Counted from the first letter of the stretch, positions 10,393 to 38,829 are shown. The stretch is 64,000 nt of DNA from Mobula hypostoma (GCF_963921235.1 NC_086108.1:86368001-86432000), one strand, 5' to 3'. The notes: generated by a model not told the origin, from the sequence alone. Numbers and translations are program-made.

Positions 10393-13300
10393 GTAATGGA
10401 AGTGTCTGAAAGGTCTGAAGGTAGATAAGTCATCTGGACTAGATGGACGACATCACAGAGTTCTAAACGAGATAGCTAAAGGGATTGTGCAGACATTATT
10501 AGTGCTCTTTCAACAACCATTAGATTCCGGCGTGGTTCTGGAGGACTGGAAAGTTGAAAATGTCACTCCACTCTTCAAGAAGGGATGGAGGCAGAAGGAA
10601 TGAAGTTATAGGCCAATTAGCTTGACCTCGGTAGTTGGGAAAATGTTGGAGTTGATTGTCAAGGGTGAGGTTTTGGCTTACTAGAATGGACGTGACAAAA
10701 TAGGCCAAAGTTAATATGGTTTCCTTAAAGGAAAACCTTTCCTGACCAATCTGTTAGAATCTTTTGAAGAAATAACAAGTGAGATAGACAAAGGAAATTT
10801 GGTGGATGTCGTGTACTTTGATTTTCTGAAGACCCTTTACAAGGTGCCACAAATGAGTCTCCTAAACAAGATAAGAGCCCGTGGTATTAGAGAAAAGATA
10901 CCAGCAGGGATAGAGCATTGGCTGATTGACAGGAGGCAAAGAATAGGAATAAAAGAATCCCCTTTGGATTGGCTGCTGCTGATTAGTGATGTTCCACAGG
11001 GGTCTCTGGTAGGACTGCTTCTATTTACATTGTATATTAATGATTTGGATGACAGAATTGATGGCTTTTTGGTAATTTTGCAGATGATATGAAGATAGGC
11101 GAAGGGGCAGGTAATATTGAAGAAAGAGACAGGCAGCAGAAGGACTTAGATTAGGAGAATGGCAAAGAGGTGGCAGATGGAACACAGTGTCAGAAAGTAT
11201 ATGGTCGTGTGCTTTGGTAAAAGGAATAAAAACGTAAACTATTTTCTAAATGGGGAGAAAATTCAAATATCAGGGATGCAAGCAGTTTTGGAAGTCCTCG
11301 TGCAGGATTCCCTAAAGGCTAATTTGCAGGTTGAGTCACTGGTTAGAAAGGCAAATGCATGATCTGAGCAATAGGATTAACATGCACGAAACAGCGCACC
11401 CTGACACCTTCACCATCATCTTGGGGGATTTTAACAAGGCCAGCTTGATAAAGTCATTACATAATTATCATCAACAAATCACTTGTGCTACCAGAGGAAA
11501 CAACACACTGGACCATTGGACGTTTGTTACACCACCATCACAAATGCCTACCATGCTATTCCTTGCCCACACTTCAGAAAATCTGATCAGCTGACTGTAC
11601 TTCTACTCCCTGAGTATAGGCAGAGACTGAAGACTGCAGCATTAGTAGTGAGGACCAAGAAGGTATGGACAATTGAAGCACAGGAGCACTTACAGGACTA
11701 CTTCGAATCGGACTATATTCGGGGCATCATTTTCGTATTTGGATGAGTGTGGCACAGTTGTTACCGACTTCATTAAAAACTTGCTGTACATTCCTAAACC
11801 GAAAGCTGTGGATAAACCAGGAGGTTGGTCATCTGCTGAGGGCCAGATCTGTGGCACTTGGGTCGAGTGACCTAGGTCTGTTCAAGAAAAACAGGCATGA
11901 CTTGATGAGGGCTATTTCAAGTGCGGAGGAACAATTCAGAGTGAAGTTGGAGACAACATCCTTTGCATGTAAACTCTCGCAAGGTTTGCAGGACATTACT
12001 TCCTACAAAGCAAAACCCAATACATGAATGGCAGAGATAGTTCACTACCAGATGAGCTCAATGCCTACTATGCCTGCTTTGAAAGGGAAAATGTACCTAC
12101 AGCTGGGAAGATCTATGTTGCACCCAGTGACCCTGTGATCTCTGTCTTGGAGGCTGATGTTAGCCTGTCTTTAACAAGGGTGAGTTCTCACTAGGCAGCA
12201 GGCCCCAAAAGAGTACTGTACTTGGTAGGGCTCTGAAAACTTGTACCAACTAACTGGCAGGAGTATTCAAGGACATTTTCAACCTCTCACTGCTATGGTC
12301 GGAAGTTCCCACCTGCTCCTAAAAGGCAACAATTATCCAGTGACCAAGAAGAGCAGTGTGAGCTGCCTTAATGACTATCATCCAGTAGCACTCACATCTA
12401 CGGTGATGAAATGCTTTGAGAGGTTGGTCATGGCTAGAATGAACTCTTGCCTCAGCAGGAACCTGAACTCACTGCAATTTGCCTATCAGTACAATAGATC
12501 TACAGCAGACGCAATCTCAGTGGCTTTTCACACGACCTTAAATCACCTGGACAAAACAAAAACCTATGGCTGGATGCTGTTCATTGACTTTAGCTCAGTA
12601 TTTAACACCATCATTTACACAGCACTGATCAACAAGCTCTATACCTCTATAGCTCTGGGCCTCTATACCTCCCTCTGGAACTGGATCTTCAACTTCCTAA
12701 CTGGAAGACCGCAACCTGTGCGTATTGGTGGTAATATGTCCTCCTCGCTGACGTTCAACACTGGTGCACCTCAGGGGTGTGTGCTTATCCCACTGCTCCA
12801 CTCCCTCTATACCCATGACTATCTGGCTTAGTCTTGCTCAAGTACAGCTATAAATTTGCTGATGCTGGTAGAGTATCTCAGATGGAGATGAGGGGACACA
12901 CAGGAGTGAGATATACCAGCTAGTGGAGTGGTGTCACAACAACAGCCTTGCACTCAGTGTCAGTAAGACGAAAGAGATGATTGTGAACTTCAGGAAGGGT
13001 AAGATGAGGGAACACATACCAATCCTCATAGAGAGAGCAGAAGTGGAGAGAGTGAGCAATTTCAAGTTCCTGGGTGTCAAGATCTCTGAGGATCTAACCT
13101 GGTCCCAACATATAAATGCAGCTATAAAGAAGGCAAGACAACAGCTATAATTAATTAGGAGTTTGAAGAGATTTGGTTTGTCACCTTCTCCACTGCAAAC
13201 CTTCTATAGATGTGCTGTGGAGAGCATTCTGACAGGCTGCATCACTGTCTGGTATGGGAGGCTACTGCAGAGGACTGAAAGAAGCTATAGAAAGTTGTAA

Positions 13301-13546
13301 AATTAGTCACCTCCATCTTGGGCACTGGCCTCCGTAGTATCCAAGACAACTTAAAGGAGCGGTAACTCAGGAAGGCGGCATCCATTATTAAGGACCCGCA
13401 TCACCCAGGATATGCCCTTTTCTCATTGTTACCATCAGGTAGGAGGTACAGAAGCTTGAAGGCACACACTCAATGATTCAGCAACAGCTTCTTCCCCTCT
13501 GCCATCTGATTCCAAAATTTACATTGAACCCATGAACACCACCTCA

Positions 13547-13552
<6 letters not shown>

Positions 13553-13578
<26 letters not shown>
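13553..13578. repeat. (TA)n microsatellite
   Basis: Direct reading. Confidence 0.95.
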
Positions 13579-13579
<1 letters not shown>

Positions 13580-13646
13580 CTGTTTTTGCACAATTTTTAA
13601 TCTATTTAATATACATATACAATAACTATAATTGATTTATTTATAA

Positions 13647-13845
13647 ATTCTTAAGTTTCCAGCCGGGTACAGGTATCAATTATAACGGACCTTTCAATGA
13701 CAAACTCTGCCATCCTCATCAGGGATGATCTGTGGTGAAATTGGCAGAGTTTGTCCTCCAAACGTTGGTTATAATTGATACCTGTACCTGGCTGGAAGCT
13801 CAAGAATAGTTTATTCATTATATACACCGGGAAAGCACTAGATCC
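13647..13845. mobile_element. Penelope-like family B terminal fold-back (inverted) insertion
   Basis: TTCTTAAGTTTCCAGCCGGGTACAGGTATCAATTATAAC pairs with GTTATAATTGATACCTGTACCTGGCTGGAAGCTCAAGAA. The minus arm has CTGATGA-GGATGGCAGAGTTTGTCATT-GAAA. Matches the PLE termini at ~17570 and ~37640. Confidence 0.8.
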
Positions 13846-13957
13846 ATTTACATATCTGTTATTTTTTATTTCTCTATTTATTTATTTATACATTTATTTG
13901 TTCTTTCTATATTATCATGTACTGCATTGAACTACTGCAGTTAAGTTAACAAATTTC

Positions 13958-14348
13958 CATTGCAAGGACGAGGCTGAGGGTGAACCCAAGTGCAGGACAC
14001 AGGCACAGAGGCAGAGTCATAAGGCATTAGCACCACCGCGAATAGGGAACCGGTATCCAGGAGAGTCTTTACACAGAGACAAGGTTTAGGTAGGGTATCT
14101 AGGAAATGATGCGGAGCTTAGAACTGACAGTCCCACAGAATCAGGAAACAAGGTTTACTCACAATAGAGTCAACCAACAAACTGGCAAAGCATGGCTGTA
14201 CCGCATGGTTTTACCCTATGTTTGCTAATGGGAATCAGGTGTGCTGTAATTAGCGGAACTAGGAATGACTGGAAATCAGACGAGGGGATTAAGGCCCAAT
14301 TTAAGGAGCTAATAGCAAGATGGGGAATTGCTAGACGGGACCATGACA
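13958..14348 (-). mobile_element. Solo LTR (Gypsy-like), same family as 44673-45942
   Basis: 5-bp TSD ATTTC (13953-13957 / 14349-14353). Shares the end GGACCATGACA and similar opposite-end sequence with the 44673 LTR. Confidence 0.75.
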
Positions 14349-14899
14349 ATTTCACAACACATGCCAGTGATAATAAAGCTGATTCTGATTCTGATTCAAT
14401 GTTAGCATTTATTTCAAGGGGACTAGAATATAAAGCAAGGATGTAATGCTAAGGCTGTATAAGGCATTGGACTGGTGAGGCCACACTTGGAGTTCAGTGG
14501 AGGTTCACGAGAATGATTCTGGAAATGATAAATTTATCATATGAGCAGCAATTAGTCTCGCTAAAATTAGAAGAATGTTGGGGGGGGGCGTTATGGGTAG
14601 AATCTCTTGATATCTATCGAATGTTGAAAGGCCTAGATAGAGTGGATGTGAAGAGTACGTTTCCTCAGGTGGGTGAGTCTAGATCCAGAGGCCACAGCTG
14701 CCAAATAGAAGGCTTTCCATTTAGGACAGAGATTTAGCCAGTGAAGCTAAATCCTGGAATTTATTGCTGTGGAGACCAGGTCACTGGGTGCAGTTGAGGT
14801 GAAGGTAGATAAGTTCTTGATTAGTCAGGGCATGAAAGAATATGGGGAGAAGGCAGGAGAATGAGGTATGAGAGGGAAATGGATAAGCCATAATGAAAT

Positions 14900-15553
14900 A
14901 AGCCAGATTGACACTGTGGTTAAGAAGGCGTACGGTGCATTGGCCTTCATCAATCGTAGAATTGAATTTAGGAGCTGAGAGGTAATGTTACAGCTATATA
15001 GGACTCTGGTCAGACCCCACTTGGAGTACTGTGCTCAGTTCTGGTCGCCTCACTACAGGAAGGATGTGGAAACTATAGAAAGGGTCCAGAGGAGATTTAC
15101 AAGGATGTTGCCTGGATTAGGGAGCATGCGTTTTGAGAATAGGTTGAGTGAACTCGGCCTTCTCTCCTTGAAGCGGCGGAGGATGAGAGGTGACCTGATA
15201 GAGGTGTATAAGATGATGAGAGGCATTGATCGTGTGGCTAGTCAGAAGCTTTTCCCCAGGGCTGAAATGGCTGCCACAAGAGGGCACAGGTTTAAGGTGC
15301 TTGGGAGTAGGTACAGAGGAGATGTCAGGGGTAAGTCTTTATGCAGAGAGTGGTGAGTGTGTGGAATGGGCTGCCGGCAACGGTGGTGGAGGTGGATACG
15401 ATAGGGTCTATTAAGAGACTTTTGGATAGGTACATGAAGCTTAGAAAAATAGAGCGCTATGGGTAATCCTAGTAATTTCTAAGGTAGGGACATGTTCGGC
15501 ACAACTTTGTGGGCCGAAGGGCCTGTATTGTGCTGTAGGTTTTCTATGTTTCT
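14900..15553 (+). mobile_element. Younger CR1 3' fragment inside the older CR1 tail
   Basis: ORF 14985-15356 LYRTLVRPHLEYCAQFWSP. Tail TTCTATGTTTCT. Confidence 0.9.
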
Positions 15554-15616
15554 AAATGGTGGAGCAGGCTCGCTGGGTCAAATTGCGTAATTCTGCTCCT
15601 ATGTCTTATGGTCTTA

Positions 15617-16246
15617 AAGTCTAAAATCTTCATAATAAGTATGTTTACATAGCTGTTGACCATAAGGGGAGAAGTCTTCATTTTAAAAATTAGTGTTTTT
15701 CACAACGTTCTAGTTTAGCGCTTTCAATGCCTTCTTCCCATGAGTGGGATCATTCATTAACATAAGTATAGTATCTATACTTTTCTTCAAATGTAGAAGG
15801 AATCAATTGCAAGGGATTCCTCTGTTCGTTTACTTTCAATATCTGGCTGGAATCTTTCAGTTTTGTCATGGTGTTATTAATCATTTCTGAAAGTGATTCC
15901 AGTGTATTAGTTCACATATGACCAAGAGGTAAGGACCATTTAGTATTATTTAAATTAGAATCATCATTGCTCGCAGATCTCCTTAATCTAATATTCTCTG
16001 AGTCATTAAGTTTTAGGGGTGTTTGAGCCAGATGAGATAATTTCCATAGTAAGTGCAAATTCATCTGCAAAAAAAAGCAAATGGCAAGTCAGGCAGCACT
16101 GAACAATATTATCATAAATATTAAAAGTAAAATACAGCAAAGGCAACATTTCTTCCTGGTGTCTGTCTGAAAAAAAACAACACATTCTGTATGTATTATC
16201 CTGAGGCAATGTTGCTATGAGATCTTCCTCAAGTGAATAAGAATTT
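15617..16246 (-). pseudogene. env: Foamy-like ERV env, SU/TM junction with furin site
   Basis: NSYSLEED; ENIRLRR|SASN (RLRRS at 15989-15975); GHM*TNTLESLSEMINNTMTKLKDSSQILK, in register with remembered foamy GYALTGAVQTLSQISDINDENLQQGIYLLR. Confidence 0.75.
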
Positions 16247-17732
16247 CTCAGCATATCATTCTCTGCAACTCCCACCACCTCCAAAGGAATCCTACTGCCA
16301 AACACACCTTTAACTCCCTCCCCACTCTTCACTTTCCACAAGGATCACTCCCTCCATGATTCCATTGTCAAATCGTCCCTCACCACTGATCTCCCTCCCG
16401 GCACTTATCCCTGAAATTAGCCAAAGTGTTGCAACTGCCCATTCACCTCTTCCCTCACCTCCATTTAGGGTCCCATGCAGCCTTTCCAGGTGAGACAACA
16501 CTTTACCTGCAATTCTGTTGGGGTCACCTATTGTGTCTACAGCTCCCAATCCGGTCGTCTCTACATTGGGGAGAGCATCATAAATTGGGGGACTGCTTTG
16601 GCGAGCACCTGCAGTTTACCTGCCAAAAACGGAAATCCCAGTGACCAAACATTTTAATTCCCATTCCCATTCCTGTTGTGACATGGCGGTCCATGGCTTC
16701 CTCTTGTGCCATGATGATGCCACCCTAAGGATAGAGGAAGAATGGCTTATATTCCGTTTGGATAGCCTCCAACCTGATGGCATGAATATCAATTTCCCTT
16801 GCCAGTAAAAAAAAATTCTCTCCCCCTCCTCTCTTCTTCTATTCCCCACTCTGACCACTTATCTCACCTGCCTATCACCTCCCACAGTGTCCCTCCTCCT
16901 TTCCTTTCTCCCACAGTGCACTCTCCTCTCCTATCAAATTCTTTCCTCTCTAGTCCTCGACATTTTCTACTCACCAGGCTTCACCTATCACCTTCTGGCT
17001 ATTCTGCTTCCCCTCCCGCCACCTTTTTATTGTGGCATCTTCACCCTTCCCTTCTAGTCCTGAAGAAGGGTCTCCGCCCAAGATGTAAACTGTGGATTAA
17101 TACCATCCACACACCGGACAGGAAGCTCAAATTTCAGTTTATACGGGTCAAAGGTGACCAAGAACTCAGGTCAGCTGGCGTTTACAGGATTCCCTGTGAA
17201 TATGGAGCAGTATATGCTCGCCAGATGGTATGCACAGTGGAAACTTGCATCAAGACGCACAGGAGATTTGTTACCCAGAGAAATTGATGATAGCAGAACA
17301 TTGCATTCGCAATGGCCATAGGATTGACTTCGACAGCATAAAACTATTGTGCCACACCAATGGCTTTGGGGATTGTCTGGTGAGGGAAGACTTTTAAATA
17401 AAACTAGAGGAAAAGAATTTCAGCAAAGATGGTCTTGCTCTAAGTAAGAACTGGAACTCAATTCCAAGCAAGATGGGAGAGCAGAAACTTGATTGGATGA
17501 GGACTAATGAAGCAGGAGGGACAGACTAAAGTGTAAATACCACCGCACTAGACATACCCAGCCACTATCCCTGATGAAGATGGCAGAGTTTGTCATTAAA
17601 ACAGCAGTTATAATCAATATGTGTACCCGGTTGTAAGCTCTTCATTTCCATGGATGCTGCATGACTTGCTGAGTTCCTCCAGAATTTTGTGTGTTGCTTT
17701 GGATTTCCAGCATCTGCAGTATTTCTTGTGTT
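16247..17732 (+). mobile_element. Penelope-like element family A, 3' part (GIY-YIG plus terminal repeat), with family B nested inside
   Basis: FTCNSVGVTYCV..LYIGES..LGDCFGEHL (GIY-YIG). Decayed hammerhead at ~17056-17090; the terminus resumes at 17641. Possible TSD TAAGAATTT / TAGGAATTT. Confidence 0.85.
17093..17640 (+). mobile_element. Penelope-like element family B, 3' part (GIY-YIG plus hammerhead-bearing terminus)
   Basis: GVYRIPCEYGAVY..TVETCIKTHRR. CTGATGAAGATGGCAGAGTTTGTCATT at 17571. Homologous to the minus-strand copy at 37544-38355. Confidence 0.85.
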
Positions 17733-18330
17733 TAGGAATTTTTTCATTGCTTTTCAGATCTATTTTTTATCTTTTCAATACATCTCATTTCCCCCTTCCC
17801 ACTGGGGAATAGGGGTTCTGTGGTGGACCCTAATTTCAGTGTTCCACTCACCCTGCAGGGATAAATCCTCCTGGGACAGGTTTGATGGTATCTATAGAGA
17901 CAGTTTACTCATAGTCTTGTCCTGGCCCCCTTCTCAATGATCTCAGATCTATCATTGATAACCTGGGTAACGAGACAAGGAGGTTTCCAGTAGAATTTAA
18001 ACTAGGGTCACAATTTTATGGAATTTGTTTTTCTTGTACTCAGTCCCCTTTTTGTGGTCTCTAAAATATCTTGTCTGGTCCCTTTGCTTTCCCTTGAATT
18101 CTCATAAACTCTCTCAGTTCCTTGAGGAGAAATGTATAGGATATAGGGAATGGTTGCCTTGAGTTAGCGATCGGGGTGTATTTCGATGAACATTGTACAT
18201 TAGAAGTTCTAACGTTCTTGTGTCTTCCTACTTTTGAAATTGGCACTTTGTTTACTGGCAATTGCTCTTCAGGGACAAGTGTAGCCTACTTGCCTCTAGA
18301 ATAGACCAATCATTTGCAACTAGAATGGAG
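17733..18330 (-). pseudogene. env: Foamy-like ERV env SU fragment
   Basis: EDLSLQGEWNTE, then RCIEKIKNRSEKQ*KNS, which joins in frame to YSLEED across the PLE insertion (cf. foamy PICIEQQKIRDQDYEVYSLYQEC). Confidence 0.55.
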
Positions 18331-18334
18331 TGTT

Positions 18335-19189
18335 TTCATTGAATAGTAGTCTGAATGCCTTTACCACTAAAGGAAGATCTTGGTCGGCATGCATGCAGGC
18401 GGGGGTGCCAGCGTATATTGTTCTGGGGTGCTGTGATGGTTGTGGTCTCACTACAGGAAGTTGTGGAGACTATCCACGTATATCCTGTACAATGACTGTT
18501 GTCACAAGAATATATTTATTAGGCTTCCAATATGTGGGCTTCCTGGGATGCAAGAAATGGGCCTATATAATCAATTTGCCACAACTGCATTGCAGTGGCT
18601 GGTTTTGCTTGTCTTACAGGAGTTGGTCTTGTGACTGCTCCAACAAATTGCTTCAGCATGTAAGGTCACCTGTATAACATAGTTAATTTTGCATGAGTGG
18701 CTTGTCCACCACTATCATTGTGTCGGAATCCTTGAATCAGTGCTTCCCACTTGTGATCAGTGGGTATTTGCTTCTTATCTATTTTAGGGTGGCATGCCCA
18801 AACCTCACCTTCTTCATCAGCTTCATATTTGTACTGTGTGGGAGATCCTTTAAAACTGGGTATAGTAGTATCTAGGAGAACTCCTAAAACGTTATCCTGG
18901 TTATTTTTTATTTGTTGCTCAGTTACTACAAAAATCCTGGCCTCCCTTGCCATAGCAAGGACCATCCCAATAGCTTGTTTTGCTTGTTCATTGGCTTGTT
19001 AATTACCAAAATTGTGTAAGAGGCCTGTAGTATATCCCAGGATGTGTAACACCTGTATAGTTCAATAATAGTTCATAAATTTTCTTCCACGTGGACAAAT
19101 ATGGAAGCAGTTTGCCTCTGTGTTCTCCATCTGGTAGTTGACCAGATGGGAAGATCTTTTTCTTCCATATTCCTAAAATAACTAGAGTC
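18335..19189 (-). pseudogene. pol: Foamy-like ERV pol, RNase H C-half plus integrase N-terminal and core region
   Basis: DSSYFRNMEEKDLPIW..KLLPYLSTWKKIYELL..GN*QANEQAK; FKGSPTQYKYEADEEGEV; GGQATHAKLTMLYR*PYM; WQIDYIGP (18581-18558); TGYTW; PACMHADQ. Colinear with remembered prototype foamy virus Pol motifs. Confidence 0.85.
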
Positions 19190-21364
19190 CATTTCTTCTT
19201 GATCTATAGTAATGAGTTCAAGGTGTGGAGCGCAGTACCCCATCTTGGCATGAACCTATTACAGTGACTAACAAATCCTAAAATGAACTGTATATGTGCC
19301 ATGTCCTTTGGCCTTGGCATCCCCTACTGCTTGAATTTTCTCAAAACATTTGCCTAATCCTCATGCGTCAATGGTATGACAACAGTAAGTGATGCTTAGT
19401 CTAAATAATTCACACTTGCTGTATTGTGCTCTGAGCCCATCATCATCTTCTCTTTTTACCACTGTCTTGAGTTGTTGGAGATGTTCCTTGTCATCCTTAC
19501 CATTAACAATTACATCATCCATGTAACACTAAGTGCCTGGGCAGCCTTGCAGTACCTGGTCTGTAGCTTTCTGCTAGAGTGCAGGTACAGGTGTTACTTC
19601 AAAATTAAATCCATTATAGTGATAAAGCCCTTTGTGAGTTTCTTTAGTGAGCAACAATTTGGACTCTTCTTCCATCTCCACTTGTAGGTATGCTTCAGCT
19701 AATTTACCTTCCCACACCTGGATTTTGTTTCTTTGTTTTTGAGTTAATTCTGCACCCATTCGTACACCTTCACCTGAATCCCTACCTCCTGTAACTTGAT
19801 TATTAGCCCTTGTGGGGTACCTTGTCAAAAGCTTTCTGGAAGTAAATTATATCCACTGCTCTACTGTTATCATAAATTTTAGATGTTTCTTCACAGAACT
19901 CCAGCATATTAATAAAACATGATTTCTCCTTTCTGAACCCAATCTGGCTTTCTGCTAACATGCCTGTTGTTATCAGCTGCTTTCCATCTCATTCTTTATT
20001 AATGTTTCCATTATCTGACCTACGATATGTGTTCAGCCGATTGGTCTATAGTTACCAGGGTCAGTGCAGTCACCCTACTTGTATACCGGGCAACCCGCCC
20101 ATTTCCAGTCCTTAGGGATTTCACCAGTCTTCGCTGACTTTTGAAAAATACATTTTAGGGGTTTATATATATAATCACAGACCTTTTTAAGTACCTTGGA
20201 TAAATGTTGTCTGGCCCTGGAGATTTACTAACTTTCAACCTTTTAATCTGAAGCTGGATCTCACTTTCTAAGATCTCTAAGTCACTTAAAACAACCTTAT
20301 TTTTCTCTACACTTACTGGCACGTTGCTAACATCTTTGGAGGTGAATACTTCAGCAAAATACGAGTTAAGGTTATCTGCTATGTCCTTCTCTGCATAATT
20401 TAACTCTTCACTATTATTCCATCCTGACTATAGCTCTCATACTTTCATTTGCCCTATGGTTAACATAATTACTATTTTTTTCTACATTCCTTATATAGCT
20501 GTCTTTTCTTCAATAATTTTTATGCATAGCTTTAATCCATGTAGTTCATCTATTGTTTTTATTGCTTCTCCCAACCTTGGGTATGAACTTTTTTCTGCAC
20601 TGCGCGTATTACCTCTTTAAATTGACTCCATTTCTAACCAGTTTCTAACTGACTAACCAGTTCCTCCCAGTTTACCTTTTGATGTCTTTGCCGCATCTGC
20701 ACAAACTTTGCCTTTCTGAAATTGAATTTAATGGCTTCCATGGGCTAAGTGTTCATCATTAAGTTTTTAAGTGCATCATTAAGCCCATCACTGAACTGAC
20801 AATGCTCAGACAACCTCTTCAATTCCGCCATGTTCACTGAAATGAACTCCTCTTTCTTTTGATTCTGCTTTTGAAACTTAAAGCATTCTGCAATGATCAG
20901 TAGTTTCCATTTTAACTGTTCCTGCATTACTTTCACAATATCAGCAAAGCTCATTTCGGCTGGTTTGGTTAGAGCAGTCACACTTCTAAGCAAACTGTAT
21001 GCCTTTAAACCCAATGCATTCAGTAAAATTCACACTCACTTCTCACTGCCTATTTTGTTTGCTTCAAAATACTGCTCATTATACAACACACAGTTATCTT
21101 TTTGTGCAATCAATTGCGTCAAACTTTCTGACCTTTCTACTTTCTTTATTGATGTTTATGAACCTGTGAACATCCATTTTCTGCCTTTTTTAAAAACTCA
21201 ACCCTATCTTTTTCTTCAAAAGAAGGACATGCTGTGCTGCTTTATTTTTTTGAAAGAAGAATACACTGTGCAGCATTTCTCACTGCACTTTTTTAAAAAC
21301 TGTTTTTCTGCACTTCAACTGGTAGATGGCCGTGTCTGGTTCATTATAAACTTATTTTTGCTAC
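19190..21364 (-). mobile_element. Ty3/Gypsy internal fragments: gag ~20640-21130 and RT ~19190-19710, split by a CR1 fragment ~19810-20640
   Basis: gag GLKAYSLLRS..KPAEMSFADIVKVM..ELKRLSEHCQF. RT LAEAYLQVEM..THKGLY..CYMDDVIV..KEHL. Confidence 0.85.
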
Positions 21365-21605
21365 TGTTGTTTTGTAACTTCAAAACATATAACTAATTAG
21401 AAGCAAAAATACAGAACTGGGAAGGTAAGTCTAATTTCATCTTCACTTTAAGGGAGCATGCACATCTGAAATGGTGGGGTGATGACGTATGTCATTTGCA
21501 TACTTTTACCTATAACACGTAATGAATTATTTAAGCAAAGAATACTTAATAAACAACATATTTACAATATTATTCAAATATTATTGAAATATTAAAAGCA
21601 CAACA
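21365..21605 (-). mobile_element. 5' LTR of the Gypsy element
   Basis: TGTTGT...ACAACA termini, immediately upstream of the gag region on the minus strand. Confidence 0.7.
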
Positions 21606-21900
21606 ATGGTGCTGATCTCCTCTAGTGCCTGCCTGACATTGGCCAGGGCTGGAACATACACCACCACCAGGATGACAGAGGAAAACTCCCTCGGCAGATA
21701 AAATGCATGACACTTGACCACTAGATGTTCCAGGCCAGGTGAGCACCTCTGTGCAGCACAATGATTTAATCATGAAGCATACACTGCACCTTCCACTGTT
21801 CTCTCCATGTGAAGAACGGCGAAGCCCTTGAGTTACAGCGCTGTGTCTGAAATTGTAGGGATGAACCATGTTTCCTTGAAGCGAAGTGTACAGAAGTCAT
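21606..21900 (-). mobile_element. Rex1-type APE fragment
   Basis: LEHLVVKCHAFYLPREFSSVILVVVYVP..NVRQALEE, homologous to 2900-3070. Confidence 0.75.
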
Positions 21901-22145
21901 TGATGTCCCTCTGGTACAGCAATCTTACTTTTAGGTATTCAGTTTTACTTTCCAGAGACTGTAAATTTGTCAGCAAGATGATAGAGAATGGGGGGGGGGG
22001 GGTCTAAGGGCTCTGCATTCCAATCTTCCAAAATATGCGTTTGCTTGCAGCACGATGTAAATCTAATGTGTGTTCATGGCATGGATGAATATTCAGTCTG
22101 TTGCTTTTCAAACTGAGTGTTAAATCAAGGTCCCAGGGACCCTAT

Positions 22146-22465
22146 CAAGTCAAGTCAAGTCAAGTCACGTTTTATTGTCATTTCAACCATAACTGCTGGT
22201 ACAGTACACAGTAAAAACAAGACAACATTTTTCAGGACCATGGTGCTACATGAAACAATACAAAAACTACACTGAACTACGTAAACCAACACAAAAACTA
22301 CACGAGACTACAGACCTACCCAGGACTGTATAAAGTGCACAAAACAGTGCAGGCATTACAATAAATGATAAATAAGATAATAGGCACAGTAGAGGGCAGT
22401 AGGTTGGTGTCAGTCCAGGTTCTGGGTGTTGAGGAGTCTGATGGCTTGGGGGAAGAAACTGTTAC
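22146..22465 (-). mobile_element. Rex1-type LINE 3' end
   Basis: (CAAGT)n tail next to TTTATT, with a 3' ORF remnant. Confidence 0.7.
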
Positions 22466-24279
22466 AATATATGCTTCACTCCTGATGTTCTGGGCAATAC
22501 TCTCTGTATTTCATATCCAGTTCATTAATCACTTTGGGTCGAAATTTATTCACCCAATATTGAAAAGAATGGTACTGTGCTGATGAAAACTGGATTAAAT
22601 CAATTCTACACAAGCTTTTTGCTGTTTTGGCCCACGCTAGGAAATCATTTCTGGTTTTCAGAGGGATTTGCTTTCTCGTTAATGTTCTCTTTTTCAGTAA
22701 AATAACTCCTCTCAAGAAGGGGCAGGGCTTAGAGGAATATTAGCCAGTGTCAGGCTCCCTCCACTGCTTAATCCTGGGTTCAAAAATTGTCCTGTGGGGG
22801 CATACCTTATTCTGATTGTTGAAAGTCACTTCCACTGTGATTGGTTAGTTTGGAAGCTGCAGCTGCTTTTCCCATTGGATAACTGTCTGGTGTCCGGTTT
22901 TAAATATCCTGGGCATATAAAATAGCATGTGAAAGGGGCTTGAACTCTTCTTCCTTTCTTTAAGCAAGAATGCACATAATGAATGGGAAGGTATACTCTA
23001 TGTGCACTTCTAACTAAGTATACACCTATTCGCAGACAGTGCTCTCTGTATCTCTTGCCAGACCCACAAATCTGATTGAACTTTACAAAGATCAAACAAG
23101 CTCCAGACATAAGGAGAGGAATCGTCATCTTCACTTGCTTCAATTATCAGGAACAACGATAGTTATTTACAGGCTGTCCCATATTGCAGACATTCCTAGA
23201 AAACACTTATATCCTTACTGAGGTCTCCCTGGTGATTATCTGTTGCAGACTAAAGGCTCTCTGACATTCCTTTGAACAAAGATCAGGTCTCCTGCAAAAC
23301 TGGTTCTTAGTTCTGCTCAGTACCCTCTGACCCCTTGGGAATCCCTCCCATCATTGCAGCATTCATTCATTCAGTGGCAATGCTGCCCTACAGCTAAAAG
23401 GAAGTTAGTTCAATTGCAGTATGTCGCGTTAAGAACTGCTTGCAAAGATTGTACCTGTTGAGCTAAATACTGACAATGGTGGAAGTTTCTAACACTGAAG
23501 TGGGAATCCTGTGTAGACATTTCAAAACAAACTTACACAGGAAAACATGTCAGTTTGTTCTATGAAGCTCACAAATGAAGAACTTAATCTTTACGGAATT
23601 TTCCTCAAAATGCAGTAATGTGGGCTACTCAGTACCAATTATCTTGAAATAAAAAAATTAATTGTATTGCGCTACTGGACAGGCTTCACTTGCCTCAGTG
23701 CTGAACACACTCTACAGCAGTGCACTTACTTTTGGGGACTCTGCACTTCATGCTCCTTGTGTTTTTATTTTACTTTTTTACTATTTACACAATTTGATCA
23801 AAGAACTTGAGCGCTAAACTGGCTCTACCTCGCCTCAGCGGCTTCGTGGCTTGTGGTCTCACTTTTGCGGACTCTATGGTTAATGTTATTTGTTTACAAT
23901 TTATTGTTTGCATGATTTGTTCTTTTTCTCACACATTGCAATTTTGATGGTCTTGTGTATTTTTTCTTAAATGGGTTGGAGTGTTTCTTGACGTTTCTAT
24001 TCTGTTTCTTTGTTTTGTGGCTGCCTGCACAAAGATAAATCTCAAGGTTATATACTGTATACCTTCTTCGATAATAAATGGATTTTGAATTTTGAACTTT
24101 GATCATACAGTGGCTTATTTTTACAATTCACATTTTTCATAATGCAAACGATTTTGATAGAAGCTTCCCTAATGATTTAACTGAGGTCTTACACTGCAAA
24201 AACTATTAAAAAGCAGTAAGCTACTGTGACTTTGCCTATATATTGAGTTGAATTAAATTCCAATGTTGATATCTGCTTC

Positions 24280-24496
24280 TGTGGCGACCCACTTTCTACA
24301 CAAGCGAACCAGCTCACAAAATAGCCCGCGCAGGGAGAGACTTTTGTAATGCACCTCTGACGTCACTTCTGTCCAGAGAGGGCCGGAAGGGAACTGCTTA
24401 AAAGCCAGTGCCACGAAGTTTGAATAAATGAGTCTCAAGTGCGACTTATAGACTGCGTGTCGTTATTTCTAGCTCTGTGTGTAGCACATCGCTACA
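24280..24496 (+). mobile_element. Solo LTR (217 bp)
   Basis: TGTGGCGA...TCGCTACA termini, perfect 4-bp TSD CTTC, internal TTAAAA and AATAAA. Confidence 0.9.
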
Positions 24497-24719
24497 CTTC
24501 CTTTATATCACAGAAATGGATAAAATAGGTACAGGCTGCTGATGCCTTTCCTCTTTCAAATCCATTCAGATCACTCAATATACAAGTATTTCAATGATTT
24601 AAGTTATAGTTCCATGCATGTCTAGTGCAGAGGGCAACCCACTGCTGCTTTTGGAAACAAGCCTAATCGCCACACCCTGCAAAGTTGTTCTATAAATTTT
24701 TGGGTTTCTGCAGGAAATG

Positions 24720-25090
24720 TCAGTATTGAGGAGAGATTGAGTCACCTGGGATTTTACTCACTGGATTTCTGATGAATGAGAGAGGACTGTAGAGAAGCAT
24801 GTAAAAATATAAAAGGGAAAGGTAAAGTAGAGGCAAGAAAATTGTTTCCGCTGGTAAATGAGACTAAAAATAAGGCACATAGCCTCAAGACTTGCGCGAA
24901 TAGATTTAGGATGGACATGAGGTGAAACTGCTTTTTCTGCAGATAGTAATGAACCTGTGGAATTCTCAGCCCTAAGGTTCCCTCATGAAATATATTTAAG
25001 ACACAATTAGACAGACTTTTTCCATAGTAGGAAAATGAAGGGTATGGGGGAAAAGGCAGGTAGGTGGAGTTGAGTCCATGGTCAGATCTA
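24720..25090 (+). mobile_element. CR1 3' fragment
   Basis: Decayed GHSLK / VMNLWNS region and CR1-type 3' UTR. Confidence 0.7.
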
Positions 25091-25094
25091 AGAA

Positions 25095-25400
25095 AATGGG
25101 TGCCGGCAGGAGATACGTCTCAACCAAAGGAGTTTTAAGGCACTCCTTCCCTCCACTAGCCTACAAGTCACCCTTGGACAAGTGTAGCACCTGCTTAGCC
25201 CCCTGATCACATGAAGCCATGGGAGCAGGTGGCAAATGGTCTTATGAGCAGCTGGTCTATATTAGACATCCTGGTTATGCGACCATTGATGCCAGGGAGA
25301 CAATCTCTGAAGTCTATTGATAATGGCTGGGGTCACCTATCCTGTAAAGACACTGCCCAGAAGAAGGCAATGGCAAACTAATTCTGCAGAAAAATATCTG
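25095..25400 (+). mobile_element. RTE-related SINE or non-autonomous element
   Basis: GAAGAAGGCAATGGCAAAC motif near the 3' part resembles the RTE/BovB-derived motif. Confidence 0.5.
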
Positions 25401-25882
25401 TTTCTGGAGTGCTTTTGGACTTAGCCATGAGTTTAGTGTGGAATGAGACACTTGATGCATCTGCACCTGCCTTCCTGTTTGTTCCCCATTGAGGAGGCAA
25501 AGAAATGTAGAACACATGGATATATAAACTACAGATGACTAGCTGTTCTTTACTGATCTGTTGGCTAGCTGTCAATGCAATATTATTGAATGACTAAAAA
25601 ATGTTTTAACAGTTTTTTGAAGAGATGAAAGTAAAGATTGATGGATTAGAAGAAAGGAGAACATCATAAAGTCATCATCAAATAACATGGAGTGATATAT
25701 AACTGATCATAGTTTCTTATTTATATCTTCTTTGTTCTCTTTCAACTTCCTTCATGTTCCTCACTTTTGTTCCACCACGAAGACCTCTTACTTGTACTTC
25801 TCTCTTCCTTTGGCTTCCACACAATTGAAATCCTGCTCCTATTTATATCTTATATATGAGCCCTGATGACGTGTCTAGACTT

Positions 25883-27318
25883 GTAATATGAAGAGCATTT
25901 GATGGCTCTGGGCCCATATTCGCTAGAATTCAGAAGAATGAGGGGTGGCCTCATTGAAACCTATTCAATGGTGAAAGCCCTTGATAGAGTGGATGTGGAG
26001 AGTATGTTTCCTTTGGGAGAGTTTAAGACCAGAGGACACAGACTCGGAATAGAGGGTGTCCTTTTAGAATGAAATGAGGAGGAATTTCTTTAGCCAAGGT
26101 GAAACTCAAGTTAATTAAACACAAAGATGTAATTTTAGAGCTCCACCTGTGAAGGATGAAAATGAGGCTTACTGAATGTAAAAAAAAAAGAACTTGAAAA
26201 AAATAGCAAGAACGAGGCGTGGCTGACGCAAGTGTGGATGAGCGTCACAAACACACCAAACTATCGAAACCAACAAAAGATACATAAACTGTTAGAAGTT
26301 GAATTAGTAACTAGTACCTCTACCCTACTTATTGGAAATCCTCAGGTGAAAACCCCTGGAGGATTGATGATATTGAGAAAATATTTATTGAAGCTACGAC
26401 TATAATGAGCATCAGCTATAGTGAGACGATAGCGGCAAAGAGTAGCACCCAAGATCTCTACCGTGTAACTGGAAATTAGCTCTGTTAAATCTTGCCAAGG
26501 GATTTAGTGAGTTAAAACGCTTTTACTATTCTGAGTGTATAATTTGTATCTGAAATATGTTCAGTAGTATTATAACTGAGATATATATAGGGGGGGGGGT
26601 GAATTTGAATTTGTAGACATACTGATCTGAAACTGAGGTTAACTACAATATTTAAAAATAGGAATTCAGTTAGTTTCCTAACTAACTAGGGATAAATAAG
26701 AAGGCAAATGTTAGTCTGTAAACCTTTAAATAGGGAACACCATTAGATCTAATTAGTTAGAGAAATTGGAGTTATAAAGGTTATTGTAATGAATCTCACT
26801 GATTCTAACTAAAAAGGAATTTAGTTTTCATTTGATATTTGAGATTTGGAACCTAAAACTGAAAGTTGGAATTTTGATTTGTTCTTACTCTTGTAAATAT
26901 TTTGTGTATATTGTTATATTTTTTATAAACCTACTTTCAGAGGAATGTGTTTTCTATTAACTGTTTGCTTTTGAAACCCAGAGCTCCTGATGGCCCACTA
27001 GCCCTGGAGTAGTACTGAGTAATTAGATTTTTCTCAGAAAGAGTGTGGCGACCAGTCACACAAGATCAGACCAGCACTACACAGTTGTTACAAGAGAACA
27101 GTGAATCTGTGGAATTCTTTGCCACAGGCAGCTGTGGAGTTCAAGTCCTAATGTATATTTAAGGCGGAGATGATAGATTCCAGATTAAGGGATACGGAGA
27201 GACGGCAGGAGATTGGAGCTGAGAGGAAAATTGGATCAGACATGATGAGATGGCGGAGCAGACTAGATAAGTCAAATAACTTAATTCTGCTCCCATGTTA
27301 TAGTCTCACGGTCTCATG
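25883..27318 (+). mobile_element. CR1 3' fragment inserted into a PLE-A terminus and itself split by an LTR
   Basis: LMALGPYSLEFRRMRG...RNFFSQ|VNLWNSLPQ. The flanks CCTGATGACGTGTCTAGACTTG and AAAAGTTGAATGTTTATTCCCTTCCATAGATG rejoin into the PLE-A terminus. Confidence 0.75.
26100..27092 (-). mobile_element. Putative solo LTR (~990 bp)
   Basis: TG...CA boundaries (TGTAAC...TTTCA on the minus strand) interrupt CR1 precisely. Imperfect 4-bp TSD AAGG / AGAG. Confidence 0.65.
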
Positions 27319-33589: not shown

Positions 33590-35495
33590 TGGATTTGTGC
33601 ATAAGGTCAAAATTTTCAATTAGCTGAGAAATATATTTTCTTATCCTTATGAACGTTCTTTGGAAAAAGTCAAAATTTGTACCATAGACTCAGAGAACTG
33701 TAACACCAGCATATCATGGCACAAAAAGAAGTAATTCAGACCAGTGAATCTATATTTCTCTGAGTAATTCCATGAATCATAGAAACCATAGAAACTACAG
33801 CACAGAAACAGGCCTTTTGGCCCTTCTTGGCTATGCTGAACCATTTTCTGCCTAGTCCCACTGACCTGCACACGGACCATATCCCTCCATATACCTCCCA
33901 TCCATGTATCTGTCCAATTTATTCTTAAATGTTAATAAAGAACCCGCATTTACCACCTCGTCTGGCAGCTCATTCCATACTCCCACCACTCTCTGTGTGA
34001 AGAAGCCCCCCCCCTAATGTTCCCTTTAAACTTTTCCCCCCTCACCCTTAACCCATGTCCTCTGGTTTTTTTCTCCCCTTGCCTCAGTGGAAAAAGCCTG
34101 CTTGCATTCACTCTATCTATACCCATCATAATTTTATATACCTCTATCAAATCTCCCCTCATTCTTCTACGCTCCAGGGAATGAAGTCCTAACCTATTCA
34201 ACCTTTCTCTGTAACTGAGTTTCTTAAGTTCTGGCAACATCCTTGTAAACCTTCTCTGCACTCTTTCAACCTTATTTATATCCTTCCTGTAATTTGGTGA
34301 CCAAAACTGAACACAATACTCCAGATTCGGCCTCACCAATGCCTTATACAACCTCATTATAACATTCCAGCTCTTATACTCAATACTTTGATTAATAATG
34401 GCCAATGTTCCAAAAGCTCTCTTTACAACCCTATCTACTTGTGACGCCACTTTTAGGAAATTTTGTATCTGTATTCCCAGATCCCTCCGTTCTACTGCAC
34501 TCCTCAGTGCCTTACCATTAACCCTGTATGTTCTACCTTGGTTTGTCCTTCCAACATGCAATACCTCATACTTGTCTGTATTAAACTCCACCTGCCATTT
34601 TTCTGCCCATTTTTCCAGCTGGTCCAAGTCCCTCTGCAGGTTCTGAAAATCTTCCTCACTGTCTACTATACCTCCAATCTTTCTATCATCAGCAAATTTG
34701 CTGATCCAATTTACCATATTATCATCCAGATCATTGATATAGATGACAAATAACAATGGACCCAGCACTGATCCCTGTGGCACACTAGTCACAGGCCTCC
34801 ACTCAGAGAAGCAATTCTCTACCACCACTCTTTGGCTTCTTCCATTGAGCCAATGTCTAATCCAATTTACCACCTCTCCATGTATACCTAGCGACTGAAT
34901 TTTCCTAACTAACCTCCCATGCGGAACTTTGTCAAAGGCCTTACTGAAATCCATGTAGACAATACCCACTGCCTTCCCTTCATCCACTTTCCTGGTAACT
35001 TCCTCGAAAAACTCCAATAGATTGGTCAAACATGACCTACCACGCACAAAGCCATGTTGACTCTCCCTAATAAGTCCCTGTCTATCCAAATGCTTGTAGA
35101 TTCTGTCTCATTAGTACTCCCTCCAATAATTTACCTACTACCGACGTTAAACTCACCGGCCTATAATTTCCCAGATTACTTTTCGATCCTTTTTTAAACA
35201 ACGGAACAACATGAGCCACTCTCCAATCCTCCAGCACCTCACCAGTAGACAGCGACATTTTAAATATTTCTGCCAGGGCCCCCGCAATTTCAACACTAGT
35301 CTCCTTCAAGGTCCGAGGGAACACTCTGTCAGGTCCTGGGGATTTATCCACTTTAATTTTCCTCAAGACAGCAAGCACGTCCTCCTTTTCAATCTGTACA
35401 GTTTCCATGATCTCACTACTTGATTCCCTCAATTCCATAGACTTCATGCCAGTTTCCTTAGCAAATACAGACCCAAAAAAACTATTTAAGATCTC

Positions 35496-35733
35496 AAACA
35501 ACAGGAATTCTGCAGATGCTGGAAATTCAAGCAACACACATCAAAGTTGCTGGTGAACGCAGCAGGCCAGGCAGCATCTGTAGGAAGAGGTGTAGTCGAC
35601 GTTTCAGGCTGAGACCCTTCGTCAGGACTAACTGATTTAGTCCTGACGAAGGGTCTCGGCCTGAAACGTCGACTGCACCTCTTCCTACAGATGCTGCCTG
35701 GCCTGCTGCGTTCACCAGCAACTTTGATGTGTG
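35496..35733. mobile_element. PLE family A fold-back insertion (97-bp inverted arms, 5-nt loop)
   Basis: Perfect 14-bp TSD CTATTTAAGATCTC (35482-35495 / 35734-35747). Arms 35535-35631 and 35637-35733 differ at 2 positions. Confidence 0.95.
35638..35675 (+). ncRNA. Minimal type I hammerhead ribozyme motif (mirror copy on the minus strand, ~35593-35630)
   Basis: UAGUC-CUGACGA-AGGGUCUCGGCCU-GAAAC-GUC^GACUG: stem I UAGUC/GACUG, intact core, palindromic ACGU stem III, predicted cut after 35670. Confidence 0.8.
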
Positions 35734-37607
35734 CTATTTAAGATCTCCCCCATTTCCTTTGGTTCCGCACATAGCCGACCACTCTGATCTTCAAGAGGAC
35801 CAATTTTATCTCTTACAATCCTTTTGCTCTTAATATACCTGTAAAAGCTCTTTGGATTATCCTTCACTTTGACTGCCAAGGCAACCTCATGTCTTCTTTT
35901 AGCCCTCCTGATTACTTTCTTAAGTATTTTCTTGCATTTCTTATACTCCTCAAGCACCTGATTTACTCCCTGTTTCCTATACTTTTCATACAACTCCCTC
36001 TTCTTCTTTATCAGAGTTGCAATATCCCTTGAGAACCAAGGTTCCTTATTCCTATTCAATTTGCCTTTAATCCTGACAGGAACATACAAACTCTGCACTC
36101 TCAAAATTTCCCCTTTGAAGGCTTCCCACCTACCAATCACATCTTTGCCAGAGAACAACCCGTCCCAATCCATACTTTTTAGATCCTTTCTCATTTCTTC
36201 AAATTTGGCCTTCTTCCAGTTCAGAACCTCAACCCTAGGACCAGATCTATCCTTGTCCATGATCAAATTGAAACTAATGGTGTTATGATCACTGGAACCA
36301 AAGTGCTCCCCTACACAGACTTCCGTCACTTGTCCTAACTCGTTTCCTAACAGGAGATCCAATATTGCATCCCCTCTAGTTGGTCCCTCTATATATTGAT
36401 TTAGAAAACTTTCCTGAACACATTTTACAAACTCTAAACCATCTAGACCCCTAACAGTATGGGAGTCCCAATCAATGTATGGAAAATTAAAATCCCCTAC
36501 CACCACAACTTTATGTTTCCTGCAGTTGCCTGTTATCTCTCTGCAGATTTGCTCTTCCAAGTCTCGTTGAGTATTGGGTGGCCTGCAATACAATCCCACT
36601 AATGTGGCCATACCTTTCCTGTTTCTCAGCTCCACCCAAAAGGACTCAGTAGACAAGCCCTCTAATCTGTCCTGCCTGAACACTGCTGTAATATTTTCCC
36701 TAACAAGCAATGCTACTCCCCCTCCTTTCATTCCTCTGCCTTGATCACATCTGAAACATTGGAACCCTGGAATATTAAGCTGCCAGTCCTGCCCCTCCTG
36801 TAGCCAAGTTTCACTAATTGCTATAACATCATAATTCCACCTGTCAATCCACGCCCTCAACTCATCCGCCTTCCCCGCAATACTCCTAGCATTGAAATAT
36901 ATACACCTCAGAAGATTTTTACCACCACTCACAACCTTTCTATCAGCAGATTTGCTTGAACTTTTAACATCATTTATTTTCACCCCAGCCACACTGTCAG
37001 CTCTGGCATTCCTGTTGTCTTTCACTTTACTAATAATTTTCCATTTATTCTTTCTCAAGTGCTTATTCCTGATTAAAGATATTGCTATCGTCATTCAGTA
37101 AGTTGCTGATCATGATCAGCTTTGAGTAAAATTTTTCTCCTTGTAACTTTTGCCTAATACTTTAAATTGATGCTTCATGAAGCACCTGCTAATGTAACTG
37201 CTTCCTGACACTTGCTCTGTCTAAACTAGTTATGATCTATTTAAATCACTTCTTACTCCTCTTTGCTTGAAGGAGGACAAAAAACAGATTCACCAGTCTA
37301 ATCATGTAGCTGAAAACCCCTGCTCTTAGCAAAGTTCTGATAAATCTAGTGTACTCTATCAAGGAACTTTCTGAATTCTTCTGAAGTGAATAATAAGAAT
37401 TGCACCCAATAATCTAGTTGTAGCCAAATCAGTATTTTGCGCATTCTGTGACTTAGATGATGAGAAGTTTTTTTTTCTTTTAATTATTTTGCTTCATACT
37501 AATGTCTTACTCTAAGTGTTTTAGTATATTGTAATTAAAAAAAGGATCTATTGCTTTCCTTGCGTATATGACGAATGAACTCTTCTCAAGCTTCCAGCCG
37601 GGTACAA

Positions 37608-37655
37608 GTAACTGATGTTTCGATGACAAACTCTGCCATGTTCATCAGGGATGAT
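37608..37655 (-). ncRNA. Hammerhead ribozyme motif of PLE family B
   Basis: AUCC-CUGAUGA-ACAUGGCAG-AGU-UUGUCAUC-GAAACAUC. Long stem II and intact core; stems I and III are partly decayed. Confidence 0.6.
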
Positions 37656-38829
37656 GCCTGGGTATGTCTAGTCCGCTACTATTTATACTCCCATTATTCA
37701 TGTCTCCTGACTGATTAGTCCTCATCCAGTCAGGTGTCCACTGTCCCACCTTGTTTACAATTGAATTCCAGTGTTTGCTAAATTTTTTTCCTCTAGTTTT
37801 ATTTCAATGGCTTCCTTTATCAGGCAGTCCCATTGGCATGGCACAGTAGTTTCGTACCATCAAAGTTAATCCTATGGCCATTGCGAATGCACCCGACTAT
37901 TTCTCTGGGTAACCCAAATATATACACCTCCTGCGTTCCTTGATACAGGTTTCCACCGTGCGTCTGTCTGGCTGATATACGCTGCTCAAAAGATATACAT
38001 AGAGAATCATGTAAATACCAGCCGACCTGAGTCCCAGATTATCTTTGATCCACATAAACTGTGATTTGAACTTACTTACGGGTTTATAGATGGTATTAAT
38101 CTGGTATTTCTTAAAGATCCTGGCAATCCTTCCAGAAACCTTGGAACTGTAGGAATGATGGGCAGTAGCAAAATTTTCCTCCTCGTTGTTAGGTTTTCTG
38201 GTTTTTCTCTCACCTTTTTAAGAGTCCAATTGATTTCCTTCAGCTTTTTCCATTCTGTATGAACATCATGCGTAATTGTCTTATTCCCTCCGGAGAGTCT
38301 CTGGATCCAAAATAGTTTTTGCACGATTGATCAAGGTAGAAAGAACAATTCTACAGTGCCCCTAAGACTTTACGGGCTCCCGAAGGTACACAAGGAGGAT
38401 TCCCCCCGAGGCCTGTCATCATTGGGATAGACTCTCTGACTTACCAGCTCGCTGAGCATTTAACAAGCATGCTGTTTCCCTTTGGGGCTGTGAGCATCAC
38501 ATCATGAACTTCACCAACTTTGTTAGCACGATAACCAACATCCAGCTGAACCTGGAGGACATAATGGCCAGTTTCGATATGATGTCCCTGCTCAGGAGAG
38601 TTCCCATTAGGAACAGCTCGGTCCTTCCTCCTGCAGTCAATGTTTGGTATGGGTACCATTGACCTTTTTGAACACACCGCTGTAAGGGTAAGTACATGAA
38701 CGAATGGATGGAGTAGCTATGGGATTGCCCTTGTCACCGGCTATTGTTAATTTCTACATGGGGACGTTGAGGAGAGAGCTCTGAGTTCATCATTCTTATG
38801 CTGCAAATGTTTCTTCAGATACATCGATG

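What the first reader, a model, noticed from the sequence alone, without database searches (positions are those of the whole stretch)
15617..17790. Env SU/TM junction reconstructs in frame across a Penelope insertion
RCIEKIKNRSEKQ*KNS (ends ~17735) continues as YSLEED (starts ~16240) once the PLE and its imperfect TSD are removed. Downstream come RLRR|S and GHM*TNTLESLSEMINNTMTKLKDSSQILK, which align without gaps to the remembered foamy post-cleavage segment GYALTGAVQTLSQISDINDENLQQGIYLLR. There is no classical strongly hydrophobic fusion peptide, as in foamy Env. An env gene means an infectious ancestor rather than an env-less retrotransposon (inference).
Basis: partly seen in the sequence, partly recalled or inferred. 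Interest (0 to 1): 0.7.

Follow-up and report, generated by a model that had tools for sequence, protein, structure and literature searches.

The report
Broken start of foamy-like envelope gene

Summary
The quoted peptides, the repeat insertion (16247-17733) and an imperfect 8-bp target duplication are real. The upstream RNase H-integrase is foamy-like (only PDB hit: PFV integrase; foamy Pol profile E 4e-10).

The junction is probably misassigned. RLRR follows a long hydrophobic helix and lies 420 nt (insertion excluded) after the integrase C-terminal motif. In 15 of 16 foamy viruses the leader-peptide/SU furin site lies 391-445 nt after that motif; the SU/TM site lies 1711-1957 nt after it in all 16. 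Region-level alignment favours Env 1-250 over 450-700. So this is likely the 5' quarter of env, and the rest is lost.

It is not one frame: the helix and RLRR are in a different frame from YSLEED and carry stops. Sequence-level Env homology is weak. The family is multi-copy and the locus is shared with other species. Verdict: a new member of a known kind.

The parts
15620..16246 (-). Env-like piece after the insertion; likely leader peptide and start of SU (foamy Env about 45-230), decayed, cut off by a LINE at about 15617; 15620-15750 not assigned
16068..16148 (-). Long hydrophobic helix, likely TM1 of the leader peptide (Kyte-Doolittle 19-mer 3.0; one stop at 16091)
   Evidence: aligns to Env 74-87; helix in model
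15978..15989 (-). RLRR furin motif, likely the leader-peptide/SU site
15921..15950 (-). N-x-T sequon then SLPLG, resembling the conserved N141...S-I-P-Q-G of foamy Env (seen by eye; not picked by the local aligner)
   Evidence: motif listing; one search placed WSLPLG at Env 210-215 instead
15852..15893 (-).
   Evidence: searches (0 of 300 shuffles within Env 30-230; 6 of 150 against whole Env; hhalign E 0.019, probability 2.5%), HRC 186-204 in PMC11468914
16239..16246 (.). Left copy of imperfect 8-bp target duplication
16247..17081 (+). Outer Penelope-like element, 5'-truncated, GIY-YIG-type 3' end with an upstream Cys cluster (Neptune-like by motif, read by eye)
   Evidence: (no Pfam hit), motif definitions PMC8557442 passages
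17082..17640 (+). Second Penelope-like fragment (Penelope/Poseidon-like by motif, read by eye) nested inside the first; another copy at 37609-38101
   Evidence: 71% over 535 nt; joints 17073-17081 to 17641
17641..17733 (+). 3' tail of the outer element (high-copy repeat)
17734..17741 (.). Right copy of the imperfect target duplication
17742..17865 (-).
   Evidence: env ATG 37-49 nt after the integrase motif in 15 of 16 foamy viruses; one search found no profile match to Env 1-20
17880..19189 (-). Foamy-like RNase H C-terminal part and integrase, frameshifted, with stops in all frames
   Evidence: Pol 668-921 at 19189-18429; integrase C-terminal domain
19190..19780 (-). Ty3/Gypsy-type RT fragment of a separate high-copy element abutting the foamy-like RNase H
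   Evidence: RVT_1 E 1.2e-9; 8R0S and Ty3 RT score above foamy RT; depth about ten times higher or more
14500..15616 (+). LINE 3' portion (CR1-like by recall) at which the env piece ends
   Evidence: (matches other LINE copies in the window)

Best explanation
The stretch is likely the 5' quarter of the env gene of a dead foamy-like endogenous retrovirus: a likely leader peptide with its membrane helix, the likely first (leader/SU) furin site RLRR, and the likely start of SU. In the ancestral virus this leader would have anchored Env in the membrane with its N-terminus inside, and furin would have cut it from SU, as in mammalian foamy viruses (inferred from layout). After integration the copy decayed: a Penelope-like element inserted into the leader coding region with an 8-bp duplication, a second one inserted inside it, frame changes and stops accumulated, about 30-35 codons are likely missing near 15897, the 3' three quarters of env and the LTR were lost at a LINE, and gag-RT were lost at a Gypsy fragment. 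It now most likely does nothing.
For: Shown: foamy-like RNase H-integrase directly upstream, same strand (the 5 PDB hits up to E 10 are all PFV integrase, E 3e-4; profile of foamy Pol E 4e-10). Distance from the integrase C-terminal motif, insertion excluded: 267 nt to the helix and 420 nt to RLRR, against 244-298 and 391-445 in 15 of 16 foamy viruses (L012 is an outlier at 466 and 613) and 1711-1957 to the SU/TM site in 16 of 16. Best hydropathy in the 70 residues before the site: 3.0 here, 2.6-3.4 before site 1 and 0.3-1.0 before site 2 in 16 of 16 Envs. Helix-to-site spacing 41 versus 39. Colinear block score with X at each break: Env 1-250 reached by 0 of 300 full shuffles, 0 of 300 other window frames and 6-9 of 300 block shuffles; Env 450-700 reached by 103-149 of 300 shuffles. 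Single natural frame: 3 of 400 versus 159 of 400. Sub-profile HMM E 0.003 versus 0.19 (null2 off, 6 sequences). Multi-copy in three other species' runs, up to 36-37 contigs at one integrase position.
Against: No hit to the whole-Env profile in 642 six-frame tiles, to Pfam, to PDB sequences, in two protein searches or in 1.84 billion representatives (2 repeat artefacts). With the helix left out the N-terminal placement is not significant (48 of 400), and in the single frame 76 of 400 block shuffles reach the score, so much of the signal is the helix. The breaks were placed by me after seeing the Env alignment. The motif-to-HRC spacing is 13 versus 46 residues and needs a deletion that I inferred but did not see. 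Only mammalian foamy Envs were available for comparison.
Confidence: 0.75

Rival explanations
1. One reading: RLRR is the SU/TM site and the GHM...SSQILK segment is the fusion-peptide/HRA start. This needs SU (about 440 codons) to be absent, either deleted or never present in this family.
For: Gapless placement at Env 584 is rank 1 of 959, 13 of 2000 shuffles; the longer 61-122 segment falls in the same register, 16 of 500. Family contigs hold helix, RLRR and the first 9 residues of the segment in one piece.
Against: A deletion would have to land RLRR within 30 nt of where the first furin site sits anyway. Site-to-segment spacing 19 versus 13. With gaps allowed the match is at chance level (37-42 of 300), as is region 450-700. 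The same residues score slightly better on Env 192-205. The segment straddles a family break point.
Confidence: 0.1
2. The piece belongs to the foamy-like element but is not env, for example an extra membrane-protein ORF between pol and env such as some fish foamy-like ERVs carry.
For: No significant sequence or fold hit to any Env. Ray-finned fish FLERVs have extra ORFs, and acc3/acc4 are tabulated between pol and env (PMC5512871, passages).
Against: Three spacings (motif to helix, motif to furin site, helix to furin site) match foamy Env closely; weak colinear similarity to Env 59-205.
Confidence: 0.11
3. A host exon using the polypyrimidine-AG near 16066 on the minus strand.
For: An acceptor-like T-run plus CAG is present there.
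Against: The stretch is multi-copy in three other species' runs and continuous with the integrase at viral spacing; the frame after the AG that carries RLRR has stops at 15914 and 15752; no protein relative was found.
Confidence: 0.04

Closest known systems
Mammalian foamy virus Env (Spumaretrovirinae; PDB 8OZH family; PMC11468914)
   Same: env directly after integrase; leader with a membrane helix; R-x-x-R site about 40 residues after the helix; N-glycan sequon shortly after; HRC-like helix; integrase with similarity over PFV IN 23-171 and its C-terminal motif
   Different: Sequence similarity of the env piece is below detection by whole-profile search; only about a quarter of env is present; spacing before the HRC-like helix is about 33 residues shorter; broken by stops, frame changes and insertions
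Fish and amphibian foamy-like ERVs (FLERVs; Aiewsakun and Katzourakis 2017, PMC5512871)
   Same: Decayed endogenous foamy-like elements in aquatic vertebrates, including a chimaera
   Different: That paper detected only pol, no env, in Callorhinchus milii (passage); here an env-like leader is linked to the pol. No sequence comparison with FLERVs was possible
Cartilaginous fish endogenous foamy virus (Wang, Chen, Cui 2023, J Virol 97:e01816-22)
   Same: By its title, an endogenous foamy virus of cartilaginous fish; it may be this family or a relative
   Different: Unknown: only the title was seen in reference lists; the paper is not held
Lokiretroviruses (PMC7947760)
   Same: Basal retroviruses with an F-like Env that has one RXKR site after a signal peptide
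   Different: The hosts listed in the passages read do not include cartilaginous fish; no match to paramyxovirus F (PF00523) here; the long cytoplasmic leader before the helix fits foamy layout

Membership tests
Endogenous foamy / foamy-like retrovirus | RT clusters with foamy viruses in a phylogeny | not testable with these tools
   The element's own RT is missing; the adjacent RT is Ty3/Gypsy-type
Endogenous foamy / foamy-like retrovirus | Pol (RNase H-integrase) most similar to foamy Pol | tested here: met
   Only PDB hits are PFV integrase; foamy Pol profile E 4e-10; tblastn E 1e-8. Not compared with ERV-L, lokiretrovirus or fish FLERV Pol
Endogenous foamy / foamy-like retrovirus | Env with a membrane-spanning leader peptide and an N-terminal furin site at about residue 125 | tested here: met
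   By layout: helix, spacing and position
Endogenous foamy / foamy-like retrovirus | Env sequence homology (Pfam Foamy_virus_ENV or profile of foamy Envs) | tested here: inconclusive
   No Pfam or whole-profile hit; weak N-terminal sub-profile signal, mostly from the helix; only a decayed quarter of the gene is present
Endogenous foamy / foamy-like retrovirus | Second furin site, fusion peptide and TM2 about 440 residues further on | not testable with these tools
   The element ends at a LINE at about 15617; no host genome is held
Endogenous foamy / foamy-like retrovirus | Spuma gag and protease, accessory genes, LTRs | not testable with these tools
   Not in the window: no other foamy Pol profile hit, no LTR-like pair in 13000-26000
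   420 nt, preceded by a helix of hydropathy 3.0
   Gapless rank 1 of 959, 13 of 2000 shuffles; chance level when gaps are allowed
Penelope-like elements (Neptune; Penelope/Poseidon) | C-terminal GIY-YIG endonuclease with CCHH motif; Neptune has an extra upstream Cys cluster | tested here: inconclusive
   Decayed motifs visible in translation and fit the definitions in PMC8557442; no Pfam or PDB hit; clade names rest on my reading by eye
Lokiretrovirus | Env similar to paramyxovirus F (PF00523) | tested here: inconclusive
   No Pfam hit up to E 1, but the piece is short and decayed

The most novel reading that the evidence does not exclude
This cartilaginous-fish foamy-like family naturally carries a miniature Env in which the leader helix and a single furin site lead straight into the fusion-peptide/HRA helix, with no SU or receptor-binding domain: a stripped fusogen or a widespread deleted form that spread to many copies, and a possible intermediate between foamy Env and paramyxovirus-type F.
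Probability: 0.07. Interest if true: 0.75.

Novelty: new member of a known kind. Interest (0 to 1): 0.3.

Why it matters
If right, a foamy-like virus of a likely cartilaginous fish had the same leader-peptide layout as mammalian foamy Env, almost to the codon. That would suggest the two-cleavage, membrane-anchored-leader design is very old; an earlier survey found only pol in a chimaera (PMC5512871). The family is multi-copy and this insertion is shared between species, so it can be dated and studied from longer natural copies. The locus itself is a dead fragment with no sign of function, and endogenous foamy viruses of cartilaginous fish are already reported by title (Wang 2023), so the gain is modest.

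Tried and rejected
No host genome is held, so paralogues could not be read directly. Pfam on 20 ORFs, 21 frames with stops as X and 7 repeat frames: no Env, integrase or GIY-YIG family. PDB sequence search with the env frame: 2 chance hits. Protein searches: env frame, longer proteins, 0 of 127 candidates; env 1-150, near length, 0 of 9; integrase 40-270, 0 of 509. Search of 1.84 billion representatives: 2 hits, both tandem-repeat proteins with short chance matches, rejected. The search for related loci with the integrase frame in viral contigs: none. L010 and L016 gave no Env-sized ORF among the 16 distinct Envs and were not used. Single-sequence fold: pTM 0.29; Foldseek PDB 0 of 2 and BFVD 0 of 87 matches at E 0.001, uninformative. 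The sub-profile HMM step returned nothing through an option error and was redone. tblastn with the 16 Envs: nothing better than E 0.28 in the region. The language-model atlas was not available for this reading, so that comparison is missing. Expression: no RNA holder listed; one run guessed to be RNA showed depth 0-7 over env and pol and no listed piece there; neither is evidence on expression. A direct joint across the empty site was not among the 15 joints shown of about 4035. Earlier scan notes: none near, none by sequence, none by words; one unrelated note in the same genome.

Full report
Setting. The window is repeat-rich vertebrate DNA; its long ORFs with Pfam hits are LINE-type RT or endonuclease. 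No host genome is held. I take the host to be a ray or shark from recalled repeat families; no call names it (an earlier scan note, e1-7812960, says only 'vertebrate'; unchecked).

Observation. All quoted peptides are present on the minus strand. A + strand insertion runs from about 16247 to 17733. Its 3' end is fixed by self-BLAST and by loose ends at 17734 in four runs. It is two elements: a Neptune-like Penelope fragment with a Penelope/Poseidon-like fragment nested at about 17082-17640 (joints 17073-17081 to 17641; second copy at 37609-38101). These clade names rest on motifs read by eye against PMC8557442 (passages); Pfam and PDB gave no hit. The flanking 8-mers match 7 of 8, which 422 of 20000 random windows achieve. 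The frames of RCIEK...KNS and YSLEED are those expected on the two sides of such a duplication. But the hydrophobic helix, RLRR and the GHM segment are in another frame, which has 9 stops in 208 codons against 17 and 18 in the other two frames. The gene is therefore broken at several places besides the insertion, and it ends at a LINE near 15617.

The element. Upstream on the same strand lies a decayed RNase H-integrase. All 5 PDB hits up to E 10 are PFV integrase (E 3e-4). I fetched foamy virus genomes from IMG/VR by an integrase motif, obtained 16 distinct Env proteins from 25 Env-sized ORFs, and confirmed with 9 of them that they are the PDB 8OZH family. The foamy Pol profile hits the window at E 4e-10, tblastn maps Pol 668-921 to 19189-18429, and the integrase C-terminal domain is at about 17995-17880. 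The RT further upstream scores better on PDB 8R0S and Ty3 RT than on foamy RT and is far more abundant, so it is a separate Gypsy-type element. No LTR pair lies in 13000-26000.

Which junction? Foamy Env has two furin sites, 122-126 after the leader's membrane helix and 567-570 after a linker (PMC11468914, passages). Position: from the integrase C-terminal motif, insertion excluded, the window's helix is at 267 nt and RLRR at 420 nt. In 15 of 16 foamy viruses these are 244-298 and 391-445 nt (L012: 466 and 613); the SU/TM site is at 1711-1957 nt in all 16. Hydropathy: the best 19-mer in the 70 residues before the site is 3.0 here, 2.6-3.4 before site 1 and 0.3-1.0 before site 2. Helix-to-site spacing is 41 versus 39 residues. 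Sequence: reading through with X at each break, a colinear block score against Env 1-250 was reached by 0 of 300 full shuffles, 0 of 300 other window frames and 6-9 of 300 block shuffles. Against Env 450-700 it was reached by 103-149 of 300 shuffles and 62-65 of 300 other frames; Env 230-480 and 739-988 were also at chance. I chose those breaks after seeing the Env alignment. The single natural frame gives 3 of 400 versus 159 of 400 full shuffles, but 76 of 400 block shuffles, and 48 of 400 once the helix is left out. The best local match after the helix is to Env 192-205, the HRC helix (0 of 300 within Env 30-230, 6 of 150 against whole Env; hhalign E 0.019, probability 2.5%).

Results against this reading. 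The whole-Env profile finds nothing at the locus among 642 tiles, nor do Pfam, PDB sequences, tblastn, two word-based searches, the search of 1.84 billion representatives (two repeat artefacts) or fold comparison of a poor model. The leader reading needs about 33 residues fewer between the SLPLG motif and the HRC-like helix. So Env identity rests mainly on layout and position, with weak sequence support.

Other genomes. Twenty runs of nine species labels hold part of the stretch; I laid 4 of 24 listed runs. Counting only contigs with 31 or more letters on both sides: the left insertion junction is bridged in X10 and X13, the right one in X13 (X9 and X10 fall short at 29 and 27 letters), the LINE junction in X10, and the Gypsy junction in X13 at exactly 31. 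The nested locus therefore predates the split from at least two other species (long pieces about 88-97% alike). The env and integrase are multi-copy in all three DNA-like runs. That fits a deletion in this copy of the size the leader reading needs, but it could equally be a deletion in the other copies.

Mechanism. Shown: order, strand, spacing, helix, furin motif, insertions, decay, multi-copy state, shared locus. Inferred: that the ORF was env; that the helix was TM1 of a leader retained in the membrane and RLRR the furin site releasing SU; the deletion near 15897; the order of decay. The locus has no intact frame and likely no function.

Literature seen. Passages of PMC11468914, PMC5512871 (only pol detected in Callorhinchus milii; extra ORFs in fish FLERVs), PMC10581153, PMC10699275, PMC12386078 (52, reference list only), PMC7947760, PMC6669660, PMC6955096, PMC8557442, PMC4422223; abstract, introduction and first results section of bioRxiv 2021.11.23.469661 (gamma-type Env only). 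Wang, Chen and Cui 2023 on a cartilaginous fish endogenous foamy virus: title only (not held); Chen et al. 2021 not held. No supplements were read; those of PMC5512871 and of Wang 2023 may hold this family. Searches listed no paper on this locus or on ray foamy env, but the most relevant paper could not be read, so I do not claim it is undescribed.

Verdict. Observation partly confirmed; interpretation partly supported. Likely the leader-peptide/SU start of env of a dead foamy-like ERV (0.75), not the SU/TM junction (0.10). New member of a known kind; interest 0.3.

Noticed in passing
window 19189/19190: A Ty3/Gypsy-type RT fragment ends exactly where the foamy-like RNase H begins (foamy Pol residue 668), same strand, so the locus looks like one element but is two. 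One contig of run X13 crosses the point by 31 letters. Deletion between nested elements is the likely cause; a true chimeric family was not tested.
   Followed up: partly
window about 15897: 7 of 32 listed contig pieces from three other species stop matching at 15895-15901, and 3 of them go on for 114-142 other letters. Either this copy or the other copies carry a deletion here.
   Followed up: partly
window 15853-16305 versus 17816-19174: Summed contig depth over the env leader is about 500-1650 against 60-610 over the integrase in three DNA-like runs. Not a copy number, but it may point to many deleted copies that keep the env 5' piece.
   Followed up: no
window 17082-17640; 37609-38101; 13647-13807: The inner Penelope-like fragment has another copy at 37609-38101 (71%), and its 3' end forms an 80-nt inverted pair at 13647-13807.
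   Followed up: no
window 35535-35733: A 97-nt, 98% complementary inverted pair made of the same high-copy repeat tail as 17641-17733, between the RT ORF (33950-35107) and endonuclease ORF (35712-37094) of a fairly well-kept LINE.
   Followed up: no
window about 20650-21100 and 19800-20600, minus strand: A Gypsy gag-like stretch (recalled resemblance; no Pfam or PDB hit) separated from its RT by a LINE RT-like piece (recalled resemblance).
   Followed up: partly
   Followed up: partly
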